The translations under genes were made by a program, and so were the position numbers. The notes beneath the pieces were generated by a model. It was given only the letters and a program-made list of their open reading frames with translations. It was not told where the DNA came from and did no database searches. From a virus (lineage: Duplodnaviria > Caudoviricetes), in IMG/VR virus record IMGVR_UViG_3300033067_000934, positions 1 to 24,260 of that record: a stretch of 24,260 nucleotides of DNA. One strand, given 5' to 3'. Below are positions 14,517 to 24,260 of this stretch, in pieces; positions within the stretch are counted from its first letter, which is position 1; every line of letters starts with the position of its first letter.

Positions 14517-14902
14517 CCTGTTTTCCTTTCCCCGACATCAACGACAGCGCCCGTCTGATTGAGCAGGAACAAAACCTTTGCCTTGTTGGCCTCGAGCTGC
14601 TCGTCGGTGAGCAGTTTCTTGAGCGCCAGCGTTGTCGGGTTCCATGCTGGAAGCGCGATCAAGAACGCCGCAGGCGGAGGCCATGTTTCGCGGTCGCGCG
14701 CGAGGATCCGGAACGCTTCCGCGATCCTCGGTTCGTGGATGTCCTGACGCCAACAGCGCGTTGGCCAAAGCGTTTCAATCCAGGTCAGCGCGGTGCCTGG
14801 GATAACATCACGGGCCGGCGTCCTGTCCAAACTCAAGAAAGCGAGCTTCTGCAACCCCGTCAGGATCGCATCGTGGAACCATTCCTCTACCGGTTTTGCC
14901 AT
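14513..14902 (-). CDS. Putative helicase loader/inhibitor-like replication protein
   Basis: 129 aa downstream of the initiator; the IAEAFR...TWPPPAAF motif resembles G39P/P-type proteins. Function is tentative. Confidence 0.5.
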   Translation of the reverse strand: MAKPVEEWFHDAILTGLQKLAFLSLDRTPARDVIPGTALTWIETLWPTRCWRQDIHEPRIAEAFRILARDRETWPPPAAFLIALPAWNPTTLALKKLLTDEQLEANKAKVLFLLNQTGAVVDVGERKTG

Positions 14903-15701
14903 GTTTCATACCCTCCAAAATTGCGACTGCCGACGCTGTTTTGCTGGGCGCGGATCTTGGACTTCCGCGAGATTGCGGAGCAGGCTTCGCGCCATCGGCA
15001 TGCTGGCCTCGAGCGGTCTGGATCACGTATCCGGCAGACTTGCCCATGTGCAGCTCGGCAAGATCTTCAAGCGCCTGCGGAGTTACCCCCTCGGCAATGG
15101 CAGCGATCAGGTCCGGGTTTGATGGGGTGACACGGCATCCGAGCTTGTTCATCAGGATCGAAGCCAGCACGACGGGAGAAATTCCTTCGCGCGCGCGCGG
15201 CTCTTGCTTTTCTTCTGTCTGTGTATGTATCTGCTGTATGCTATGTGCGACATCCGCGACTATTGGTGGATGTTCGCTACCACTTGCGACTGTCCGCGAC
15301 TGTCCGCGACTGTCCGCGACATGTTGCGACGTGTTTGATTTTGCTCGCTTTTCCGCCATCCGAACCCTGTCTGCATCGCGCTTTTCGTCCCTGCTTATGC
15401 GGTCGCGGTACGCCTTGTGGTTGACGATGAACCAGCCCCAGTCGCGGTGATCATCCAAGAGCTTGATACGCACGCCTTCCATGTCCGGAGTGCGCGAGTG
15501 CGGATCAGGAGCCTCGAGGACGGTAATGCCCTTTCGTATGATCTCGATAGGAATCCCGGTCCTGCGAGAAATCGCACATGGCGTCATGTCGATAACGCCG
15601 TCTGCGGTGCACAGGATCAGAAGTTGCTGGAACGTGACGAGCGCCTCCCAAGTGTCGGAAAGCGTGCCGTCGTACATCTCGTCGAAAAGTTTGCCGTACA
15701 C
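14808..15701 (-). CDS. Replication initiator protein (O-like)
   Basis: MYGKLF..MYDGTL N-terminus with HTH, RDADRVRMAEKRAK helix, and an iteron-bearing linker. Confidence 0.75.
   Translation of the reverse strand: MYGKLFDEMYDGTLSDTWEALVTFQQLLILCTADGVIDMTPCAISRRTGIPIEIIRKGITVLEAPDPHSRTPDMEGVRIKLLDDHRDWGWFIVNHKAYRDRISRDEKRDADRVRMAEKRAKSNTSQHVADSRGQSRTVASGSEHPPIVADVAHSIQQIHTQTEEKQEPRAREGISPVVLASILMNKLGCRVTPSNPDLIAAIAEGVTPQALEDLAELHMGKSAGYVIQTARGQHADGAKPAPQSRGSPRSAPSKTASAVAILEGMKHGKTGRGMVPRCDPDGVAEARFLEFGQDAGP
15200..15330. repeat. Putative replication origin: iterons and AT-rich tract
   Basis: Three exact tandem TGTCCGCGAC (15291-15320), further GCGAC cores at 15247, 15256, 15286 and 15326, next to an AT-richer stretch at about 15200-15245. 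Confidence 0.75.
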
Positions 15702-15703
15702 GG

Positions 15704-16867
15704 CTATCCAACCTCCGAAAAAAGCGGTGAATCGCCGCAGACGCGGCGGCGCGCGATGGCGGCGTACTCGGCATTGAGTTCGATCAGGATGGCGTCGAAT
15801 CCTTCGATGCTTGCCGCGCGCCCGGTGCTGCCGCTACCGGCGAACGGATCGAGCACGGTGCCTGCCGGCGGCGTGACCAGCCGGCAAAGGTAGCGCATCA
15901 GTTTCGTTGGCTTGACGGTCGGGTGCGTGTTTTGCTTCGGCGCGCAGGTCAAGCCGTTGGCTTGAACATGGGCGTCGTTTCGCATGTTCATGCAGCCGGC
16001 CAGCTTGGGTTCCAGTCCCTCGCAGCCTTCGTTCCGATCCTTGCGGCTCGCCTTCGCGCAGTAGAAGAAACGGGCGGCGCTGCCAGCATCTAGGCGGCGT
16101 GCGCCAGGCTTCATCTTAAAGCCTACCGAACATTCGTTATCGCTATCTGCACTCGGTTCGTTGCCGCGTCCACGACGCATTGCACCGTAGACGTTTTGCG
16201 TTTTGCGTGAATCTGCGCTTGTGCTGGCTTCGGCTATCTGCCCAGGCGCAATCGGAAACGCCGCCAGCACTTCCTCGCTGCCGTCGTGGATGACGTTGGC
16301 TGGCCAGCGGCCAATGCCATAATCAACTGGCTGCGTACTGCCGATGTGGCCATAGATTCCGTTCGTTCCTGCAGCGCGGCCATTGTTGCGCGCGCCACTA
16401 TCTCCAATCCTGCACCCGTCGATGTTCAACGCTCCGGTGCCGTGCTGCATGACATTCGCCGCGACGGTTCCGATCAATGGCTTGCGCGCCACGACGATAG
16501 GCTCGTGCGCTGGCTTGAGCGCGGTGCCAAATCCTTTCCAGTCGCCGTCAAGATTCTTCGATTTCGGGAATCCTGACGCGTAAATCCACATGATTTGATC
16601 GCGAACCTCAAAACCCGCGTCCTCGATCGCGCAAGCGAGCCGGTGATACGTGCGCGATCCGCCGAATGCGAGCAGATGACCGCCCGGCTTGAGCACGCGC
16701 AGGCATTCGCGCCACACGTCCGCATCGTAGGCAATGCCGGTCGAATCCCACGCTTTGCCCATGAATCCGAGTTCGTAGGGCGGATCCGTGACGACCGAAT
16801 CTACGCTCGCATCCGGCAGCGTGCGCAACACGTCCCTGCAATCCCCAACGAGTATCCGAACGGTCAT
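15704..16867 (-). CDS. DNA methyltransferase, N6A/N4C beta class
   Basis: VTDPPY near the N-terminus; HPTVKP and VLDPFAGSGSTG at the C-terminus; start ATG 16867. Confidence 0.92.
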   Translation of the reverse strand: MTVRILVGDCRDVLRTLPDASVDSVVTDPPYELGFMGKAWDSTGIAYDADVWRECLRVLKPGGHLLAFGGSRTYHRLACAIEDAGFEVRDQIMWIYASGFPKSKNLDGDWKGFGTALKPAHEPIVVARKPLIGTVAANVMQHGTGALNIDGCRIGDSGARNNGRAAGTNGIYGHIGSTQPVDYGIGRWPANVIHDGSEEVLAAFPIAPGQIAEASTSADSRKTQNVYGAMRRGRGNEPSADSDNECSVGFKMKPGARRLDAGSAARFFYCAKASRKDRNEGCEGLEPKLAGCMNMRNDAHVQANGLTCAPKQNTHPTVKPTKLMRYLCRLVTPPAGTVLDPFAGSGSTGRAASIEGFDAILIELNAEYAAIARRRVCGDSPLFSEVG

Positions 16868-17184
16868 GGACGGCTGAAGTTCAACGGCTTGCCGTCGCCG
16901 AACACGAGCTTGCGCATGTCGTCCAGGTGGCGCTGCGTGGCCGCAAGCGCGCCGGCGCTGCCGGTTCCTTCCGATGGGCGGAAACCGCATTGCCACAGGG
17001 CGTCCATCAGGCTTTGGCACTGCGTAGGGCGAAGGCTGAACGACGGCTGCTGGATCAGGTCGTCGCCGATGTCCGTAAATTCGACGCGCGTAGCAAGGAA
17101 CCTGCTGTTTTGCTTGTATTCGACAAGGAGGAAGTCGACACGGTTGCCGTAGTCGACGCGCTGGCAGTGCAGTTCGAGTGCCAT
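16864..17184 (-). CDS. Hypothetical phage protein
   Basis: Start ATG 17184 (TGATG overlap); CQSLMDALWQCGFRPSEG...ATQRHLDDMRKLVF. Confidence 0.75.
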   Translation of the reverse strand: MALELHCQRVDYGNRVDFLLVEYKQNSRFLATRVEFTDIGDDLIQQPSFSLRPTQCQSLMDALWQCGFRPSEGTGSAGALAATQRHLDDMRKLVFGDGKPLNFSRP

Positions 17185-17480
17185 CAGCCGGCCTTCTGCG
17201 CGTACAGCGCGATGGTGCCGCGCAGCGCGTCCCAATCGGATTTTCTTACCGTGACGAGGCCTCCGGCGCTGCCGGTCAGGCCAAGATTCAGGAACGCAAG
17301 CAGGTCGCACAGGTTCTCGATTCGGATGCCGGTGTCGCCGGCCAGCCACTTGCTGAAATTGCCCTCGCTCATGTCCAGCGAGTCGGCGCAGCCCTTTTGG
17401 GTCGCGTCTGCAACCGCGCGCAAGATGCTGCTGTGTATCTTACGTGCGGTTTCCGCCTTGGTGTCGTTTGATGGCAGCAT
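17184..17480 (-). CDS. cII: CII-like transcriptional regulator
   Basis: ARKIHSSILRAVA..TQKGCADSLDMSEGNFSKW resembles the lambda CII HTH; follows cro. Confidence 0.75.
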   Translation of the reverse strand: MLPSNDTKAETARKIHSSILRAVADATQKGCADSLDMSEGNFSKWLAGDTGIRIENLCDLLAFLNLGLTGSAGGLVTVRKSDWDALRGTIALYAQKAG

Positions 17481-17481
17481 G

Positions 17482-17697
17482 TCAACCTACTCCCCTTCGT
17501 ACTTGCCGTTTGCGCGAGCCATTGGTGCCGAAGATTCCGCGGCGGTCCTTGATCGCGCGCCAGCACCACGCGTCCGGCACCGGGTCGTCATCTTCCTGAC
17601 GGCAAACGGCCTGCTTGGAGATGCCCAGTTCGGCCGCGAGGTCAGAGTCGCGGTCGATGCCAAGGCGCGATTTGAGCTGTTGTTTTGTCGGGTTCAC
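17482..17697 (-). CDS. cro: Cro-like HTH repressor
   Basis: DSDLAAELGISKQAVCR HTH followed by PVPD; first gene of the leftward unit; likely start GTG 17697. Confidence 0.75.
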   Translation of the reverse strand: MNPTKQQLKSRLGIDRDSDLAAELGISKQAVCRQEDDDPVPDAWCWRAIKDRRGIFGTNGSRKRQVRRGVG

Positions 17698-17703
17698 CCG
17701 CGT

Positions 17704-17743
17704 AGTAAACCATCGTTTACCGTTGGCGTCAACCACTATTTAC
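17704..17743 (-). promoter_or_regulatory. PR-like promoter with two operators
   Basis: -35 TTGACG (17732-17727), 17 bp, TGn-TTTACT (17709-17704). Operators GTAAAC-catc-GTTTAC (17705-17720) and GTCAAC-cact-ATTTAC (17728-17743). Confidence 0.75.
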
Positions 17744-17811
17744 CGTAACGGCAGGATGATCGCGTCATGATCGGCAGCCGGCGACTAGCCGAAGCATCCA
17801 AAGTTCCTGAC

Positions 17812-17835
17812 GCCGCCCGCCGGGCGGTTCTTTTT
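17812..17835 (+). terminator. Rho-independent terminator within the switch region
   Basis: GCCGCCC-GCC-GGGCGGT followed by TCTTTTT. Confidence 0.7.
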
Positions 17836-17864
17836 CGCCCGCGGCGCGGCCGTGCGACTACACG

Positions 17865-17904
17865 GTAAACACTTGTTGACACCACCAGTCAACTATGCTT
17901 TACT
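17865..17904 (+). promoter_or_regulatory. PL-like promoter with two operators
   Basis: -35 TTGACA (17876-17881), 17 bp, TGn-TTTACT (17899-17904). Operators GTAAAC-actt-GTTGAC (17865-17880) and GTCAAC-tatg-CTTTAC (17888-17903). Confidence 0.78.
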
Positions 17905-17935
17905 CGCAATCGCTATCTGCATAGGAGATAGAACG

Positions 17936-18265
17936 ATGCGTGAAAATCAGTTGGCAGACACCCGTGCCGCACTCGTGGTGAAGTCCATTTCGAGCGCGGC
18001 GCACAAGTGGAACATGCAGCCGTTGCACCGCCAAACGGCGCTGCGCATCGGCACCGACGTTCTCATCAACGGGGGGGGCGTTTCGCAGGCGATCGACGCC
18101 GCGAACCGTTACATCGCCGCGCGCGTGGTGCGCGAAAAGCTGGTTGCTATGGAGCAGCAGCCCAAGCCCTATACCGTTTCGGAATGGGTCGGCTGGGTCG
18201 TGTTCGGCGCGGCCATCATCGTGATCTGCATCGAAGCCGCGAAGGCGGCTGGGGTGCTGGCATGA
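17936..18265 (+). CDS. Early hypothetical protein with C-terminal TM
   Basis: AGGAG RBS, ATG 17936; hydrophobic WVGWVVFGAAIIVICI. Confidence 0.75.
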   Translation: MRENQLADTRAALVVKSISSAAHKWNMQPLHRQTALRIGTDVLINGGGVSQAIDAANRYIAARVVREKLVAMEQQPKPYTVSEWVGWVVFGAAIIVICIEAAKAAGVLA

Positions 18266-18579
18266 ACGCACAGACTAAGCACACCGCTGGGCCGGATGTA
18301 GTGTCAGCAATGGTTTCCAAGCTCTATGTCGGTGGCAACTTCGGGCCGCGAGAAATGGTTTTGCATTGGAATGAAAACCCGAGGCCAACCGGCCTGATTG
18401 CGAATTGGGTTTCGGCAAAAACGCCAGAAACATTGCGTGCGCTTCGCAAAGCCGAGCGTGACGGACTTGTCGAATGCTCCGGAACGCAAAAACCAGCGCG
18501 CAGTTGGAACGCAGCAGACCGAAAGGAATTGCACTGGAAACTCACTAGCGCCGCCATCGCCAAGGCGGTGACGCCATGA
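18262..18579 (+). CDS. Early hypothetical protein
   Basis: ATGA overlap; starts MNAQTKHTAGP and ends AAIAKAVTP, termini typical of phage early proteins. Confidence 0.65.
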   Translation: MNAQTKHTAGPDVVSAMVSKLYVGGNFGPREMVLHWNENPRPTGLIANWVSAKTPETLRALRKAERDGLVECSGTQKPARSWNAADRKELHWKLTSAAIAKAVTP

Positions 18580-18764
18580 GCGAACTCACCGTTGACGCGC
18601 TGGGTGACGAGAACCTGATCGCCAAACGCGATTCCGAAATGCGCCTACTGGCCGAGATGATCGACGAGAACGCCACGCCGGCCACAGCCGCGTCGCGCGG
18701 CCTTAACGAATGGTTCAACCGGAACATGCACCTGGCCGACACGCGGCACCCGCCGGAGAAATGA
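18576..18764 (+). CDS. Early hypothetical protein
   Basis: 62 aa, ATGA overlaps at both ends. Confidence 0.65.
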   Translation: MSELTVDALGDENLIAKRDSEMRLLAEMIDENATPATAASRGLNEWFNRNMHLADTRHPPEK

Positions 18765-18976
18765 CCGTGCAGCGCATGGTGAAGATCGAGGGTCAAATCG
18801 CACCGTGCCAAGGCTGCGGAAACCAGCCTCGGCACTGGCTCGAAACCACGCACGGCGGCCAGCACTTCATCGAGTGCTCGCCGTGCAACACACGCACACC
18901 AAAGTTTTACACCTTTCAGGAAGCGGTCGAATCGTGGGAACGCAACGACGTCGCGGCCGTGAATATCGCCGCGTGA
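18761..18976 (+). CDS. Lar-family (restriction alleviation) zinc-ribbon protein
   Basis: PCQGCG...FIECSPCNTRT...EAVESWER; ATG 18761 with GGAG RBS. Confidence 0.7.
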   Translation: MTVQRMVKIEGQIAPCQGCGNQPRHWLETTHGGQHFIECSPCNTRTPKFYTFQEAVESWERNDVAAVNIAA

Positions 18977-18992
18977 CACAGGAGAAATCACG

Positions 18993-19805
18993 ATGAATGC
19001 AGTAGTGCAACACCCGCAATCGCGTCAGATGGTCAGTCGGCAAGATGACATTCGCACCGCGCTGAGTACGAGCCTCTACCCGGGCGCGTCCGACGAGAGC
19101 ATCAACATGGTGCTCGCGTACTGTTCTGCGGCTGGCCTGGACCCGATGCAGAAGCCCGTGCACATCGTCCCGATGTGGGATAGCAAGGCGCACGCGATGC
19201 GCGATGTCGTCATGCCAGGAATCGGCCTGTATCGAATCCAGGCGTCGCGCAGCGGGCAGTTCGCCGGCATGAGCGAGCCGGAATTTGGACCGATGCTCAC
19301 CGAAACTATCGGCAACGTCCAGGTTACGTTCCCGGAATGGTGCAAGGTCACAGCAAAGCGCCAACTGGAAACCGGCACCATCGCGGAGTTCACGGCCGTC
19401 GAATACTGGATCGAGAACTACGCGATCAAGGGCGGCAAGGAAAAGGACCAGTCGCCCAATGCCATGTGGATGAAGCGCGCGCGAGGCCAGCTGGCGAAGT
19501 GTGCCCAGGCCCAGGCTTTGCGCATGGCGTTCCCCGAAATCGGCGCGCAGCCGACGGCCGAAGAAATGGATGGCAAGGAAATCATCCAAGACGAACCGCG
19601 CGTGATACGCGCAGAGCCGCGGCCGCAACTTGCGGCGTACTCCAACGAAAGGTTCGACAAAAACCTGCCCGCGTGGCGCGAGGTCATAAAGTCCGGCATG
19701 AAAACGGCCGACGACATCATTGCGATGGTAGAGACGAAGGGCACGCTCACCGACGGGCAGCGTGCCGCGATCCGCGCCGTGAAGGCGCAGGACGGTGCGC
19801 AATGA
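18993..19805 (+). CDS. bet: Phage recombination protein Bet (RecT family ssDNA annealing)
   Basis: YCSAAGLDPMQKPVHIVPM, GIGLYRIQASRSGQFAG and MW.KR.RGQLAKCAQAQALRMAFPE. Confidence 0.92.
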   Translation: MNAVVQHPQSRQMVSRQDDIRTALSTSLYPGASDESINMVLAYCSAAGLDPMQKPVHIVPMWDSKAHAMRDVVMPGIGLYRIQASRSGQFAGMSEPEFGPMLTETIGNVQVTFPEWCKVTAKRQLETGTIAEFTAVEYWIENYAIKGGKEKDQSPNAMWMKRARGQLAKCAQAQALRMAFPEIGAQPTAEEMDGKEIIQDEPRVIRAEPRPQLAAYSNERFDKNLPAWREVIKSGMKTADDIIAMVETKGTLTDGQRAAIRAVKAQDGAQ

Positions 19806-21460
19806 AAACTGTCCAGCACGTTCAGGGCTCGCCAGGCTGGCACGATCATCGCCGCACCACGCACAACGCCAGCGACGCGCCGGCGATGATGGGCGTATCG
19901 CCATACGTTACCCGCGCCGATCTGGTGAAGCAGCGCGCGACCGGCATTGAGCGCGTCATCGACGAGCAGACGCAGGCCGTATTTGACCGTGGTCATGCGG
20001 TTGAACCGCTGCTGCGCGCGATGGCCGAGAAGATGATCGGCGAGGATTTGTACCCGATCACGGCCACCAGCGACGACGGCTATATCAGCGCCAGTTTCGA
20101 TGGCGTGACGCTGGACGAGTCCATCATTTTCGAGGCCAAGCAACCGAATGCAGCAAAGTGCGCAGCCATAGACGATGACTGTATTCCGGAAATGGATTAC
20201 TGGCAGATCGTGCAGCAATTTGCCGTGAACGAATCGGCGGAACGTTGCATCTACATGGTCGGTGACGGCACCCAAGACAACACATGGCGCATGTGGATCC
20301 ATCGTTCGAAGATCGAGGCGGACATTCCGAAGATGCTGGCAGGCTGGGCACAGTTCGATGCGGACGTCGCCGCCTACGTTCCGGAGCAAACGTCAGCGCC
20401 CGCGCCGATCGCAAAGCCGGTAGAAGGTTTCGGTTCGCTCGCGCTGCGCGTCGAGGGCCGCGTGCTGGCGTCGAATCTGGACGCATTCCGAGAATCCGCC
20501 GATGCTTTCCTCGCGCGCCTGCCGAAGCCTGCGGAACTGGAAACCGATCAGGACTTTGCCGACGCCGACGCGGCGGTCAAGGCGTGCACCGAGGCCGAGG
20601 GTCGGATCAAGGCCGCCAAGGATGCGGCGCTCGCGCAAATGGCTGACGTCGATGCTGTGCTGCGCACGGCCGACACCATCGCCGAGACGATCCGCGCCGC
20701 GCGGCTTGCGCTGGACAAGGCTGTCAAGTCCGAGAAGGAACGCCGCCGCGCCGAGATCGTCGCTGCCGGTGCTGATGCGGTGCGCGCGCACTACGCGACG
20801 ATCAACGCCACGCTCGGCGCGCATGCCATCCTCGCCCCGCAATCGCTGTCGCTGGACATCGGCGCCAGCATCAAGGGCCTGAAATCGCTGGCCAGCATCA
20901 AGGATGCCGTCGATACGGCCGTGGCGAACGCGAAGATCGACGCGAGCCAGCGGGCGGAAACCGTGCGCGCAAGCGTTGCCGCGCTCACCGAGGCGATGTC
21001 CGGCCACGAAACGCTGTTCCCGGATCGCGTGGCGCTGTGCGCGTCCAAGGCACCGGACGACATCCGCAACCTGGCCGCGGCACGCATCGCCGAGCACAAG
21101 GCGCGTGAAGCCGAACGTCAGGCACGCGAAGCGGAGTGCGCCAGCAAACAAAGCGAGATTCTTGCCGGGCAGCCGGCACACCAAGCGCAGAGCATGGCGC
21201 CCGCCGCCGCCGTGTCTGCCACCCACGCTCAGGGTCAGGCCGCGGCGGTTCGGCCTGGCGCGAAGATCAAGCTCGGAGAAATCAATGCTCGCATCGCGCC
21301 GCTCAAGATCGACTCCGAAGGACTGGCGCAGCTCGGGTTCAGTCCGGTCGGCACCGAGCGCGCCTCGAAGCTCTACAACGAACGCGACTGGCCGGCGATC
21401 TGCGACGCCATGATGGCGAAGATCGTTGCGGCCGCCACCAACGCGGCGAGGGCCGCGTGA
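19802..21460 (+). CDS. YqaJ-like (lambda Exo family) exonuclease with long C-terminal domain
   Basis: QGSPGWHDHR, ASDAPAMMGVSPY, GHAVEP, SASFDG, FEAK and WQIVQQ; ATG 19802 overlaps the bet stop. Confidence 0.9.
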   Translation: MKTVQHVQGSPGWHDHRRTTHNASDAPAMMGVSPYVTRADLVKQRATGIERVIDEQTQAVFDRGHAVEPLLRAMAEKMIGEDLYPITATSDDGYISASFDGVTLDESIIFEAKQPNAAKCAAIDDDCIPEMDYWQIVQQFAVNESAERCIYMVGDGTQDNTWRMWIHRSKIEADIPKMLAGWAQFDADVAAYVPEQTSAPAPIAKPVEGFGSLALRVEGRVLASNLDAFRESADAFLARLPKPAELETDQDFADADAAVKACTEAEGRIKAAKDAALAQMADVDAVLRTADTIAETIRAARLALDKAVKSEKERRRAEIVAAGADAVRAHYATINATLGAHAILAPQSLSLDIGASIKGLKSLASIKDAVDTAVANAKIDASQRAETVRASVAALTEAMSGHETLFPDRVALCASKAPDDIRNLAAARIAEHKAREAERQAREAECASKQSEILAGQPAHQAQSMAPAAAVSATHAQGQAAAVRPGAKIKLGEINARIAPLKIDSEGLAQLGFSPVGTERASKLYNERDWPAICDAMMAKIVAAATNAARAA

Positions 21461-21660
21461 CGAAGTGCACGACCGTCGACGTGCCCGGGCCGGTGTCCAT
21501 CCCCTTCACCGGCCCAAACCCCTATGCCGCTACGCCAGCGGCGGTTCGTTCGGAAGCTGGCCTATTCGACCACCCCGCTGCGCAGACGTGTCAAGGAAGC
21601 CACAGGGCTTCGCGCGGCGGGATTTTTCTTCCAACGCAGGAGACGGCAACCCGTGAATGA
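21457..21660 (+). CDS. Possible small hypothetical protein
   Basis: GTGA overlap with the exonuclease stop; 67 aa; no recognisable motif. Confidence 0.35.
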   Translation: MTKCTTVDVPGPVSIPFTGPNPYAATPAAVRSEAGLFDHPAAQTCQGSHRASRGGIFLPTQETATRE

Positions 21661-21739
21661 CATCGCATCCAACAAGACGATCCTCCTGCGTGAGATCGGC
21701 GACGCCGCGACGATGGTCATAGGCTCCTTCAATCCGTAA
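21653..21739 (+). CDS. Possible 28-aa peptide
   Basis: AGGAG at 21638-21642 and GTG 21653; stop lies just before the next gene. Confidence 0.35.
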   Translation: MNDIASNKTILLREIGDAATMVIGSFNP

Positions 21740-21742
21740 ACC

Positions 21743-22078
21743 GTGAGCCACCAGGACGCCCAGCTACCGCTTGACTTCACACGGCCACGGCCGTGTGGGG
21801 TCGGCTACAAGGAGCGAGGAGGCGCGTCGCAGGCAGTTGCCGAGGAATTGGCCGAGTCCGGTCGCGCGCAACGCCTGCGGCAGCTGGTGACGAGCTACTT
21901 CGACGCCGGGCACCAGGCAACAGCCGACGAAGCCGCCGCGGCACTTGGCGAGAACATCCTTGCGATCCGGCCACGCGTGTCCGAGCTGCGCAAGGCCGGA
22001 ATCATCATCCCCGCCGGAGAGCGCAGGCCATCGTCGAGCGGGAAACCGTCAACAGTCTGGAAAAGGAACGCAGCATGA
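21743..22078 (+). CDS. Winged-HTH DNA-binding protein
   Basis: TADEAAAALGENILAIRPRVSELRKAGII...RRPSSSGKPSTVW. Confidence 0.75.
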   Translation: MSHQDAQLPLDFTRPRPCGVGYKERGGASQAVAEELAESGRAQRLRQLVTSYFDAGHQATADEAAAALGENILAIRPRVSELRKAGIIIPAGERRPSSSGKPSTVWKRNAA

Positions 22079-22269
22079 AAACCCGTATCTACCTCGTCAC
22101 CGACTCGGCCGACTTGTCGCATCGCTTGGTGCGCGCCAGCACGCCGGCACAAGCGCGCACTCACGTCACGCGCGATCGCTTCGCAGTCGACGTTCCAGAC
22201 CAGGACGAACTAGTCGAATTGACCAAGCTGGGAATCGAGGTCGAGAACGCCGCAGAACTTGGCGAGTAA
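22075..22269 (+). CDS. Small phage protein
   Basis: MKTRIYLV...RLVRASTPAQARTHV; ATGA overlap, AGGA RBS. Confidence 0.75.
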   Translation: MKTRIYLVTDSADLSHRLVRASTPAQARTHVTRDRFAVDVPDQDELVELTKLGIEVENAAELGE

Positions 22270-22313
22270 GCAATGGCGTTCGTCCGGGCGGTGCGCTGGC
22301 CTGCCGCATTCGG

Positions 22314-22375
22314 CGCTAACGCCCAAGCTAAGGCGCCGTAGCGAAGCGAAGGTCGCCTTGAGCGCGTAGTTATGC
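22314..22375 (-). mobile_element. attC site 1
   Basis: - strand: R'' GCATAAC, 5 bp, L'' GCTCAAGG ... L' CCTTAGC, 6 bp, R' GTTAGCG. The + strand folds with unpaired G22360 and T22353. Confidence 0.85.
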
Positions 22376-22392
22376 CGCAACGCGAGGACACG

Positions 22393-23244
22393 ATGAAGGA
22401 ATGCAGACGCCCGATTGTGCGATACCACGGCGGCAAGTGGAGACTCGCGCCTTGGATTATTGAGCACCTGCCGCATCACCGCGTTTACGTGGAGCCGTTT
22501 GGCGGCGGCGGTAGCGTGCTGCTGCGCAAACCGCGCAGCTACGCCGAGGTGTACAACGATCTTGACGGCGAAATGGTGAACCTGTTTCGGGTGGCGCGCG
22601 ACAACGGGCGCGAGCTGCTTGAGCAGTTGCGCATGACCCCATTCGCGCGCGCCGAGTTTGCCGAAGCATGGGAGCCAGCCGAGACGCCACTTGAGCAGGC
22701 GCGGCGTACTGTGGTGCGCGCCTTCATGGGCTTTGGGAGCGCAGCGATTACGTTGATGCGCGCACCCGAGAAAGCTGCACGCGGTGGCACACCAGGTACG
22801 GGCTTTCGGGCGAACAGCAATCGTAGCGGAACTACGCCGGCGCACGACTGGAAAAACTACCCGGACGCGCTGGACGCGATTATTGAGCGCCTGCGCGGCG
22901 TGGTGATTGAAAACCGGGATGCTTTGGATCTGATGCCGCAACACGACGGCGAGGGAACGGTGTACTACGTTGACCCGCCCTATGTAGCCGAGACGCGCGA
23001 CAAAGGTGGCGACTACCGGCACGAAATGACCGACAGCGACCATGAGCGGCTTGCGAACGTGCTGCACGGACTGACTGGCGCGGTGGTGCTGAGCGGCTAC
23101 GCGTGCGATTTATACGACAGGATGTATGCAGGCTGGCAGCGCATCGAGCGCGCCGCGTATGCAGACGGCGCCAGAAAACGAATTGAAGTGCTGTGGCTTT
23201 CAAAAAACTGCCCAGCGGCGGGACTTTTTAATAATGCGGCATAA
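22393..23244 (+). CDS. Dam/D12-class N6-adenine DNA methyltransferase (cassette A)
   Basis: YHGGKWRLAPWI, YVEPFGGGGSV, EVYNDLD and YVDPPY; GAGGA RBS before ATG 22393; TAA stop lies inside the attC2 core. Confidence 0.92.
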   Translation: MKECRRPIVRYHGGKWRLAPWIIEHLPHHRVYVEPFGGGGSVLLRKPRSYAEVYNDLDGEMVNLFRVARDNGRELLEQLRMTPFARAEFAEAWEPAETPLEQARRTVVRAFMGFGSAAITLMRAPEKAARGGTPGTGFRANSNRSGTTPAHDWKNYPDALDAIIERLRGVVIENRDALDLMPQHDGEGTVYYVDPPYVAETRDKGGDYRHEMTDSDHERLANVLHGLTGAVVLSGYACDLYDRMYAGWQRIERAAYADGARKRIEVLWLSKNCPAAGLFNNAA

Positions 23245-23299
23245 CGCTTGAGCTAAGCGGCGGCACGAAGTGCCGTCCGACTTGAGCGAATAGTTATGC
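23239..23299 (-). mobile_element. attC site 2
   Basis: + strand GCATAAC-gcttga-GCTAAGCGGCGGCAC-GAA-GTGCCG(T)CCG(A)CTT(G)AGC-gaata-GTTATGC; unpaired bases lie in the right arm. Confidence 0.9.
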
Positions 23300-23325
23300 G
23301 ACATGCCGAACAATGAGAGAGTGAT

Positions 23326-23622
23326 ATGCCAGCATACTACGAAACCCACGAACCGCCGCACTGCCCTACGTGCAACTGCGGAATGCCCGACAGACATGAG
23401 GCGCAGGCGCGCGGAGCGCATGCCGCGCCGTGCGGCAAGCATTGTGAGGCGACCGCATTCAATGTTGAATTTCGCAGCTTACGCGCATTGTTGAGGCTTG
23501 CGTTGGTGCACGTTGAGGCAAGCGCCGAAGCCAGCCATTTAACGGATGGATTCAGACGTGGGCCGGAAAACGAACTGGACAAATTGGCCGCACGAATCAG
23601 GTGCGCTACACATGGCGCATAA
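23326..23622 (+). CDS. Cys/His-rich hypothetical protein (cassette B)
   Basis: 98 aa with HCPTCNCG and PCGKHC; fills the cassette; stop lies in the attC3 core. Confidence 0.7.
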   Translation: MPAYYETHEPPHCPTCNCGMPDRHEAQARGAHAAPCGKHCEATAFNVEFRSLRALLRLALVHVEASAEASHLTDGFRRGPENELDKLAARIRCATHGA

Positions 23623-23671
23623 CGCTTGAGCTAAGCGGCCCGTAAGGGTCCGCTTGAGCGAATAGTTAGCC
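23617..23671 (-). mobile_element. attC site 3 (55 bp)
   Basis: + strand GCATAAC-gcttga-GCTAAGCGGCCC-GTAA-GGG(T)CCGCTT(G)AGC-gaata-GTTAGCC. Confidence 0.9.
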
Positions 23672-23690
23672 GACATCTAGGAGAATGATA

Positions 23691-23918
23691 GTGAAGAAGT
23701 GGGAAAAACTGGCTTGCGTTTCGTACATTTGTTTTTTCACCGGTATGGCGGTCGCCGAGATTGGTCAGCCAATAGCAGCAAGCGAGCCAATCACAATTAG
23801 CACTGCGATATCGGTCTTTTGGTTCATGGCGATACCTGCAATGCTCGGGTACATGGCTGGCAGGAAAGATGAAATGGCGGCTAACGCAGAGTTAAGCGGC
23901 AGCCGCCGCGAGGAATAA
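23691..23918 (+). CDS. Small two-TM membrane protein (cassette C)
   Basis: AGGAG at 23679-23683 favours GTG 23691 (ATG 23685 is the alternative); two hydrophobic segments; reads into attC4 (ANAELSG). Confidence 0.7.
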   Translation: MKKWEKLACVSYICFFTGMAVAEIGQPIAASEPITISTAISVFWFMAIPAMLGYMAGRKDEMAANAELSGSRREE

Positions 23919-23968
23919 CAGACTAGCGCAGCCGATACGCGGCTATCCGCTTGAACGCTGAGTTAGAC
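23879..23968 (-). mobile_element. attC site 4 (90 bp)
   Basis: + strand GGCTAAC-gcaga-GTTAAGCGGCAGCCGC...GCGGCTA(T)CCGCTT(G)AAC-gctga-GTTAGAC. Confidence 0.85.
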
Positions 23969-24000
23969 TTCGCCCGGCAGATACCGATAGGAGACTCAAA

Positions 24001-24195
24001 ATGGAAAAGTTCCCGCCGATTCTTGGCATTCCGTGCGACAACTTGCATAGCCTCGTTGGTGATGCGCTACCGAGCAATGGCGAGTGGCATACGCTCACGG
24101 CATGCGTTAGGAAAACAGAGGACGGAGTATTCCAGGTCGATGAGTTGTTACTTCGGTTAGGAATAGACCAAATAAAAGCGAAGCCTAACGCTTGA
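24001..24195 (+). CDS. Hypothetical protein (cassette D)
   Basis: AGGAG RBS; 64 aa; ends PNA* inside attC5. Confidence 0.7.
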   Translation: MEKFPPILGIPCDNLHSLVGDALPSNGEWHTLTACVRKTEDGVFQVDELLLRLGIDQIKAKPNA

Positions 24196-24242
24196 GCTAA
24201 GCGGCGCCGTGAAACGGCGTCGGCTTGAATGAACTGTTATGA
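24183..24242 (-). mobile_element. attC site 5 (aadA-like)
   Basis: - strand TCATAAC-AGTTC-ATTCAAGC-CGACGCCGTTTCACGGCGCC-GCTTAGC-TCAAGC-GTTAGGC. Confidence 0.9.
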
Positions 24243-24260
24243 CTCACGTTGCCGCCATTT

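What the first reader, a model, noticed from the sequence alone, without database searches (positions are those of the whole stretch)
22314..24242. All cassette ORFs are inverted relative to their attC sites
Seen: in all five sites the extra base lies in the right-hand L box of the + strand (GCT-AAG versus CTT-G-AGC), with a second unpaired T. The canonical R''-L''-L'-R' order therefore reads on the - strand, yet 4/4 ORFs with RBSs are on the + strand. Known: in typical cassettes the ORF is co-oriented with attC and the unpaired G/T bases are on the non-coding bottom strand; inverted ORFs are the exception. Inference: these form a distinct phage-adapted cassette class, expressed by read-through from the phage early promoter at about 17876 rather than from an integron Pc. 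They would be antisense to Pc, and so probably silent, if captured by a host integron.
Basis: partly seen in the sequence, partly recalled or inferred. Interest (0 to 1): 0.88.

Follow-up and report, generated by a model that had tools for sequence, protein, structure and literature searches.

The report
Phage gene cassettes in mirror polarity
A phage carries four small genes between five integron-type recombination sites that face the opposite way to those of bacterial integrons, a layout seen at most of the phage sites examined; the same genes occur reordered in other samples, so phages likely keep their own mirror-image pool of swappable cassettes, probably shuffled by the host's integron enzyme.

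Summary
Confirmed and general. Five attC sites (22314-24242) carry their extra bases on the + strand. That strand of site 5 is 51/60 identical to the bottom strand of the aadA1 attC, and all four ORFs lie on +. Across viral contigs, RBS-bearing starts follow the bottom strand at 171 of 303 sites and the top strand at 4; in bacterial genomes the counts are 14 and 46 of 218. PHROG hits: 25 of 75 bottom-strand ORFs, 0 of 75 top-strand. The Dam cassette recurs near-identical behind other cassettes, joined at the left end of site 1, so the mobile unit is attC plus the gene after it. Only 1 of 50 array-bearing phage records has an IntI; host IntI is the likely recombinase. Published phage PH101, whose sites IntI1 recombined best by the bottom strand, is also inverted, unremarked in the text I read; TJE1 is canonical. 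The 17876 promoter and silence under Pc are untested. I found no paper describing this; the scan noted it before on other DNA.

The parts
22314..22375 (-). attC site 1 (strand given = canonical top strand; bottom strand is +); travels with the Dam gene
   Evidence: junctions at 22315/22316
22393..23244 (+). cassette 1 ORF: D12-class/Dam adenine DNA methyltransferase, 283 aa; stop codon TAA lies in the R' box of site 2
23239..23299 (-). attC site 2
23326..23622 (+). cassette 2 ORF, 98 aa (most relatives 78-94 aa), no family; one relative sits in a phage-like region without attC
23617..23671 (-). attC site 3
23685..23918 (+). cassette 3 ORF, 75-77 aa, hydrophobic, likely start GTG 23691; reads 40 nt into site 4
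23879..23968 (-). attC site 4 (90 bp, 5/5 spacers)
24001..24195 (+). cassette 4 ORF, 64 aa, no family
24183..24242 (-). attC site 5, 51/60 identical to aadA1 attC; L boxes imperfectly paired
18993..21460 (+). upstream early genes: Bet/RecT-like annealing protein (18993-19805) and YqaJ/RecE-like exonuclease (19802-21460)
17876..17904 (+). candidate early promoter: perfect -35, poor -10; not called by the scanner
14808..15701 (-). likely replication initiator with 10-bp iteron-like repeats at about 15253-15330 (inferred origin)

Best explanation
This is an array of integron-type attC sites at the end of a phage's early gene block, with every gene on the attC bottom strand, and its cassettes are likely excised and inserted by an integron integrase that the host probably supplies. 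The mobile unit runs from the AA|C of one site through that site and the gene after it to the AA of the next site (shown by breakpoints). New cassettes would enter at attC sites or at a half site on the promoter-distal side (inferred). Genes would be transcribed from the phage early promoter upstream, not from a Pc (inferred). Because IntI fixes cassette direction by the attC strand, phage cassettes would face away from a host Pc and host cassettes, many of them anti-phage, would face away from the phage promoter, so the two pools share an enzyme but not expression (inferred). The cargo is ordinary phage accessory genes, often DNA methyltransferases.
For: Site anatomy and polarity. Bottom strand purine-rich and lower in folding energy at 5 of 5 sites, by 0.5-3.6 kcal/mol, as PMC5027507 describes for bottom strands. 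Gene-flanking core sites are perfect complements in 3 of 4 cassettes against 1 of 4 within a site; 105 against 52 of 145 viral intervals; 75 against 26 of 112 genome intervals. Dam cassette with 0-1 differences starting at 22315/22316 after unrelated DNA in runs X2, X7 and X9 (three studies); in X7 one contig reads ORF2-site 3-232 other bases-site 1-Dam, a different order. Only 5-6 shared bases precede the crossover there, too few for homology-driven exchange. Shared tracts between viral loci stop at the next site's left arm 14 times and run through it 2 times, of 28 right ends; genome control 0 and 13 of 15. One phage record has a true IntI (TIGR02249 427 bits, cut-off 265) directly after an inverted array and a half site. 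PH101 is inverted, and IntI1 recombined its two tested sites better by the bottom strand (PMC9892861). In five records with sites in both directions, every site given an RBS-bearing start had it on the bottom strand.
Against: No recombinase in this 41%-complete record, and the sequence beyond site 5 could not be found. The host is unknown, so a host IntI is not shown. 8 of 30 left breakpoints fall inside the upstream site rather than at its end, and 19 of 58 ends were at no detected site, which leaves room for homologous exchange. Sites 1 and 5 do not fold fully into the attC hairpin in their minimum-energy structure. TJE1 is a phage with a canonical MTase cassette, so inversion is not required. 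No expression data.
Confidence: 0.72

Rival explanations
1. The sites came from integrons but now act as short homology blocks: the phage's own Bet/Exo system swaps the genes between similar attC arms, with no integrase needed.
For: Bet-like and RecE-like genes lie 0.9 kb upstream. Sites 2, 3 and 5 share 20-22-nt arms. 8 of 30 left breakpoints lie within the upstream site. Site 5 looks like a hybrid of two arm types. 17 of 23 near-complete array phages have no tyrosine recombinase.
Against: The Dam cassette keeps its unique site 1 whole and joins other cassettes within 5-6 bases of the AA|C. 15 of 30 left ends are at the site's outer end. Extra bases and a single polarity are conserved across hundreds of sites, which homology alone would not need. 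Only 4 of 80 Exo-relative loci have an array downstream (many have short flanks).
Confidence: 0.15
2. A phage-encoded recombinase (IntI or a Xer-like enzyme beyond the contig end) acts on the array, making this a self-contained phage integron.
For: Record G019 has an IntI at the matching position, on the same strand as the cassette genes. This record is truncated exactly where such a gene would lie. Two earlier scan notes proposed a Xer-type enzyme.
Against: 13 of 50 array records hold any PF00589 gene, 6 of 23 among those at least 90% complete. 12 of the 13 have only non-IntI integrases (best TIGR02249 score 48 bits). The one such neighbour I read in full (G026) looks like an ordinary prophage integrase followed by a tRNA-like att sequence (read by eye).
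Confidence: 0.12
3. The reason for the inversion is replication: with early genes co-directional with the fork, the coding strand is the lagging-strand template, where a bottom strand folds and recombines more often. This complements rather than replaces the best explanation.
For: PMC5371416 reports higher excision with bottom strands on the lagging-strand template. A likely initiator gene with iteron-like repeats lies 7 kb left of the array, so a rightward fork would have this geometry.
Against: A fourfold-site GC-skew test gave no consistent sign: 8 positive, 9 negative, 1 not computable of 18 genomes. Origin and replication mode are inferred only.
Confidence: 0.3
4. The array is a captured piece of a host integron that happens to hold inverted genes.
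For: Phages that captured host integron pieces are published (PMC9892861), and L286 is a canonical array with intI in a viral record.
Against: In genome loci with intI, 9 sites score canonical and 0 inverted, of 36. Four strongly inverted genome loci (L135, L153, L157, L158) are short MAG contigs with phage-type genes. The cargo here has phage relatives without attC: 15 of 16 Dam loci and L433.
Confidence: 0.03

Closest known systems
CALINs in phage genomes (Qi et al. 2023, PMC9892861)
   Same: Clusters of attC sites without intI in phages; MTase cargo; sites recombined by IntI1 through the bottom strand.
   Different: The text calls TJE1 and PH101 'typical' and does not mention gene-versus-attC polarity (sections read and term search; figures not seen). 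By my check PH101 is inverted and TJE1 canonical. The paper found 17 CALINs in 10,705 genomes; one strict pattern here hit about 140 IMG/VR stretches.
Integron gene cassettes of class 1 and sedentary chromosomal integrons (attC aadA1/aadA7)
   Same: R''-L''-L'-R' anatomy, two extra bases, purine-rich bottom strand, complementary core sites around each gene, 51/60 identity of site 5 to attC aadA1.
   Different: The gene lies on the bottom strand and follows its own attC instead of preceding it; no intI, attI or Pc in the record; cargo is phage early genes.
SALINs and attG insertion (Loot et al., bioRxiv 10.1101/2022.09.11.507474)
   Same: IntI can insert cassettes at genomic sites away from attI, a route by which an array could start in a phage operon.
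   Different: attG insertion does not change a gene's direction relative to its own attC, so it cannot by itself explain the inversion.
Toxin-antitoxin cassettes with an opposite-facing promoter in Vibrio integrons
   Same: Transcription opposite to the array (parDE3).
   Different: Single cassettes with their own promoter in a canonical array; here whole arrays are inverted and appear promoterless.

Membership tests
attC site | R''(RYYYAAC)-5 nt-L''(8 nt)...L'(7 nt)-5/6 nt-R'(GTTRRRY) with pairing arms | tested here: met
   5 of 5 sites, read on the minus strand; 0.02 per shuffled window
attC site | Extrahelical G (and T) on a purine-rich, more stable bottom strand | tested here: met
   G at 5 of 5 on +; purine fraction 0.55-0.58; + strand lower in energy at 5 of 5
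attC site | Minimum-energy fold is the full recombinogenic hairpin | tested here: inconclusive
   Full for sites 2 and 4; site 3 once its own R' is restored; site 1 about 0.5; site 5 not
attC site | Recombined by IntI, bottom strand preferred | not testable with these tools
   Shown for the inverted PH101 sites in PMC9892861, not for these
integron gene cassette | Core sites flanking a gene are complementary (circular intermediate) | tested here: met
   3 of 4 perfect, 1 with one mismatch
integron gene cassette | Found in different neighbours with boundaries at the crossover point | tested here: met
   Dam cassette junctions at 22315/22316 in three studies
canonical integron cassette | ORF on the attC top strand, upstream of its own attC | tested here: not met
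   4 of 4 ORFs on the bottom strand
complete integron | intI, attI and Pc beside the array | tested here: inconclusive
   No PF00589 in the record, which is 41% complete and ends where they would lie; no extension found
CALIN | Two or more attC sites without a nearby intI | tested here: inconclusive
   Met within the available sequence; one flank is missing

The most novel reading that the evidence does not exclude
Tailed phages run a widespread mirror-image integron cassette system: they turn their own accessory genes into cassettes with the attC at the gene's 5' end, trade them between unrelated phages using the host's IntI, and the reversed polarity keeps host defence cassettes silent in the phage and phage genes silent in the host. 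Gene families found both with and without attC, and sites whose loop holds the gene's RBS and start codon, would make phages a place to watch cassettes being created.
Probability: 0.45. Interest if true: 0.88.

Novelty: new variant of a known kind. Interest (0 to 1): 0.72.

Why it matters
Gene-to-attC co-orientation is treated as essential to integron function (PMC5027507). A large phage pool that reverses it shows that integrases may diversify viruses as well as defend hosts, whose integrons store anti-phage cassettes (bioRxiv 10.1101/2024.07.02.601686). It changes the reading of phage CALINs as a route of gene delivery into host integrons, since most such genes would arrive facing away from Pc. 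It also offers paired gene families with and without attC for the open question of how cassettes are made.

Tried and rejected
Promoter scan: 0 sigma-70 sites in 17000-24260; terminator-like sites (13 against 8.3 +/- 3.2 in shuffles) are not above chance. Rfam: no match. Extending the contig past 24260: no match in viral or metagenome contigs. Relatives of ORF3 and ORF4 in viral contigs: none. ORF-length-only strand calls were noisy in high-GC DNA (49 inverted, 21 canonical, 75 unclear of 145), so RBS and PHROG tests were used. A first site detector had a spacing bug and was replaced. The direct test of which site travels with a gene had only 3 viral pairs (2 upstream, 0 downstream, 1 tie; genome control 0, 9, 11 of 20). 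GC-skew test of the lagging-strand idea: inconclusive. RNA runs hold only small shares and are contigs, which show no strand. X9/X10 and X13/X14 look like data sets filed twice and count once; X1 may be the source sample. Short joints inside attC arms (side under 30) were ignored. Atlas search of ORF2 gave no family. A dedicated Xer-type recombinase was considered and not supported for this set.

Full report
Context. The window is a 24,260-base linear virus record, 41% complete by CheckV. The minus strand carries P22-like portal, capsid, terminase, lysis, an MTase and a CII-like gene; the plus strand from about 17.9 kb carries a Lar-like gene, a Bet/RecT-like annealing protein and a YqaJ exonuclease. 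The best portal matches are Bcep22-like Burkholderia phages at 37%; the host is unknown. The finding lies at the far end of the plus-strand early block.

The observation. Five sites have attC anatomy with the 8-base L box, and so the extra G, in the right arm of the plus strand. My detector finds these five only, against 0.02 per shuffled window. To fix polarity independently I searched plasmids with the minus strand of site 5: 4691 records match, and in the three opened, the cassette genes (aadA1, qacF) lie on the strand of the match. The plus strand of site 5 is 51/60 identical to the aadA1 bottom strand and 30/60 to its top strand. The plus strand is purine-rich and folds lower at all five sites, as reported for bottom strands (PMC5027507, passages). 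The four ORFs are on plus: a Dam-type MTase, ORF2 and ORF4 with diverged relatives, and ORF3 with only its own cluster. Three have clear Shine-Dalgarno motifs; ORF2's is weak.

It is a phage rule, not an accident. One pattern written in top-strand order was run on both collections (126 viral loci from 57 of 64 parts; 130 genome stretches from 18 of 64 parts). After dropping duplicates and sites within 250 bases of a locus end, a heuristic called 84 inverted, 6 canonical and 17 unclear of 107 viral sites, and 16, 90 and 22 of 128 genome sites. With a weight-matrix detector over the viral loci (L286 and L105, a canonical intI array, left out) and the genome loci, an RBS-bearing start followed only the bottom strand at 171 and only the top strand at 4 of 303 viral sites, against 14 and 46 of 218 genome sites. 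In genome loci that also hold intI the count was 0 inverted and 9 canonical of 36. As an objective check, for the first 75 of 94 eligible viral intervals I scanned the longest ORF of each strand: 25 of 75 bottom-strand ORFs and 0 of 75 top-strand ORFs hit PHROGs, including five MTases, two HNH nucleases, an RNA ligase and a PAPS reductase. Loci chosen by protein similarity rather than by attC agree: 4 of 80 Exo loci and 1 of 16 Dam loci carry a downstream array, all inverted. Four strongly inverted genome loci hold phage-type genes; four weak calls (L140, L152, L165, L169) look bacterial and are probably noise. In five records with sites in both directions, every site given an RBS-bearing start had it on the bottom strand, so polarity follows local gene direction.

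The cassettes move, and the unit is site-then-gene. Core sites flanking each gene are complementary in 3 of 4 cassettes; this marks a circular intermediate but not its polarity. Polarity comes from breakpoints. In public runs, the Dam cassette appears with 0-1 differences starting at 22315 or 22316 after unrelated DNA (X2, X7, X9; three studies), and the X2 contig leaves the window at 23248, just inside site 2. One X7 contig of 806 bases reads ORF2, site 3, 232 other bases, site 1, Dam. X7 and X9 have little or no cover over most of the backbone. These are metagenome contigs, so misassembly at repeats is a caveat, but the sides are 180 and 394 bases. Among viral loci, shared tracts end at the next site's left arm 14 times and pass through it twice (12 ends unassigned); left ends are at the upstream site's outer end 15 times, inside it 8 times, unassigned 7 times. 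The genome control gives 0 and 13 for right ends. This is what a crossover at AA|C on the plus strand predicts.

Which enzyme. This record has no tyrosine recombinase and could not be extended. Of 50 array-bearing records (50 of 63 chosen), 13 have one, 6 of 23 among those at least 90% complete. One is a true IntI, placed after the array and a half site, on the strand of the cassette genes; the other twelve score far below the IntI cut-off. So most arrays need an enzyme in trans, most simply host IntI (inference). Published data bear on this. Qi et al. (PMC9892861; abstract, methods, Tables 1-2, section 3.4 and supplement part 1 of 2 read; figures and the Dryad file not seen) tested six phage sites and found bottom strands better for the five that recombined. 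Locating their sequences, PH101's sites have the bottom strand on the annotated coding strand, two of them followed by a strong RBS and ATG. TJE1 is canonical. In P12002L, attC1 is inverted but gave no verified junction, and attC2 lies at a strand switch. Inverted phage sites are therefore IntI1 substrates, and inversion is common but not universal.

Why inverted. Two ideas, both inferred. First, separation of pools: IntI sets direction by the attC strand, so each pool is silent in the other's array, and host arrays hold anti-phage cassettes (passages). Once a pool exists, expression alone would maintain its polarity. Second, replication: bottom strands on the lagging-strand template excise more (PMC5371416, passages), and a likely origin lies left of this array, but a skew test over 18 genomes was inconclusive. 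The proposed promoter has a perfect -35 at 17876 and a poor -10 and was not called; read-through over 4.4 kb is untested.

Novelty. Ten literature searches (open-access PMC and bioRxiv only) gave no paper describing inverted phage cassettes as a class; the phrase searches returned nothing. Subscription papers are not covered. Seven earlier notes of this scan report the same layout on other phages; none matches this sequence. They are not independent evidence, and the Xer-type enzyme that two propose is not supported in my set. Verdict: a real, widespread new variant of a known system; interest 0.72.

Noticed in passing
L415:5402-5521; L413:4268-4371; L369:14302-14395: Long attC types whose central loop holds the RBS and start codon of the next gene, so the ORF begins inside the site and reads through the L'' and R'' boxes; a possible trace of how cassettes are made.
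   Followed up: no
L056:38-1190 (record G019): A phage with a true IntI after an inverted array and an attI-like half site, the integrase on the same strand as the cassette genes; a second, prophage-type integrase lies next to it.
   Followed up: partly
L437:30900-33050 (phage PH101, NC_029094): Published CALIN is inverted; a TTGACA-17-TAGTAT promoter-like site directly precedes the first attC on the coding strand, and long stretches are duplicated between cassettes.
   Followed up: partly
L369:16630-16660; L413:3360-3390; L056:1150-1190: Arrays end on the promoter-distal side in a half site (AAC core without a hairpin), attI- or attG-like.
   Followed up: no
window 15253-15330: Tandem 10-bp repeats inside a likely replication initiator gene: probable origin iterons.
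   Followed up: partly
window 23282-24205: In run X1 the contigs over cassettes 2-4 have depth 86-143 against about 30 for the backbone, as if several phages in one sample share them.
   Followed up: no
window 18259-18566: A 308-base gene-sized block outside the array assembles as its own contig at higher depth in X1 and X2 and is present in X7 and X9: another shared module, without attC.
   Followed up: no
window 15704-17020: A second DNA methyltransferase (N6/N4, PF01555) outside the array, on the minus strand.
   Followed up: no
window 17875-17893: Inverted repeat GTTGAC-7-GTCAAC overlapping the -35 hexamer: possible operator between the divergent blocks; no cI-like gene was recognised there.
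   Followed up: no
L286: A viral record from an isolate genome holds 16 canonical attC sites and an intI: likely a host integron included in a prophage call.
   Followed up: partly
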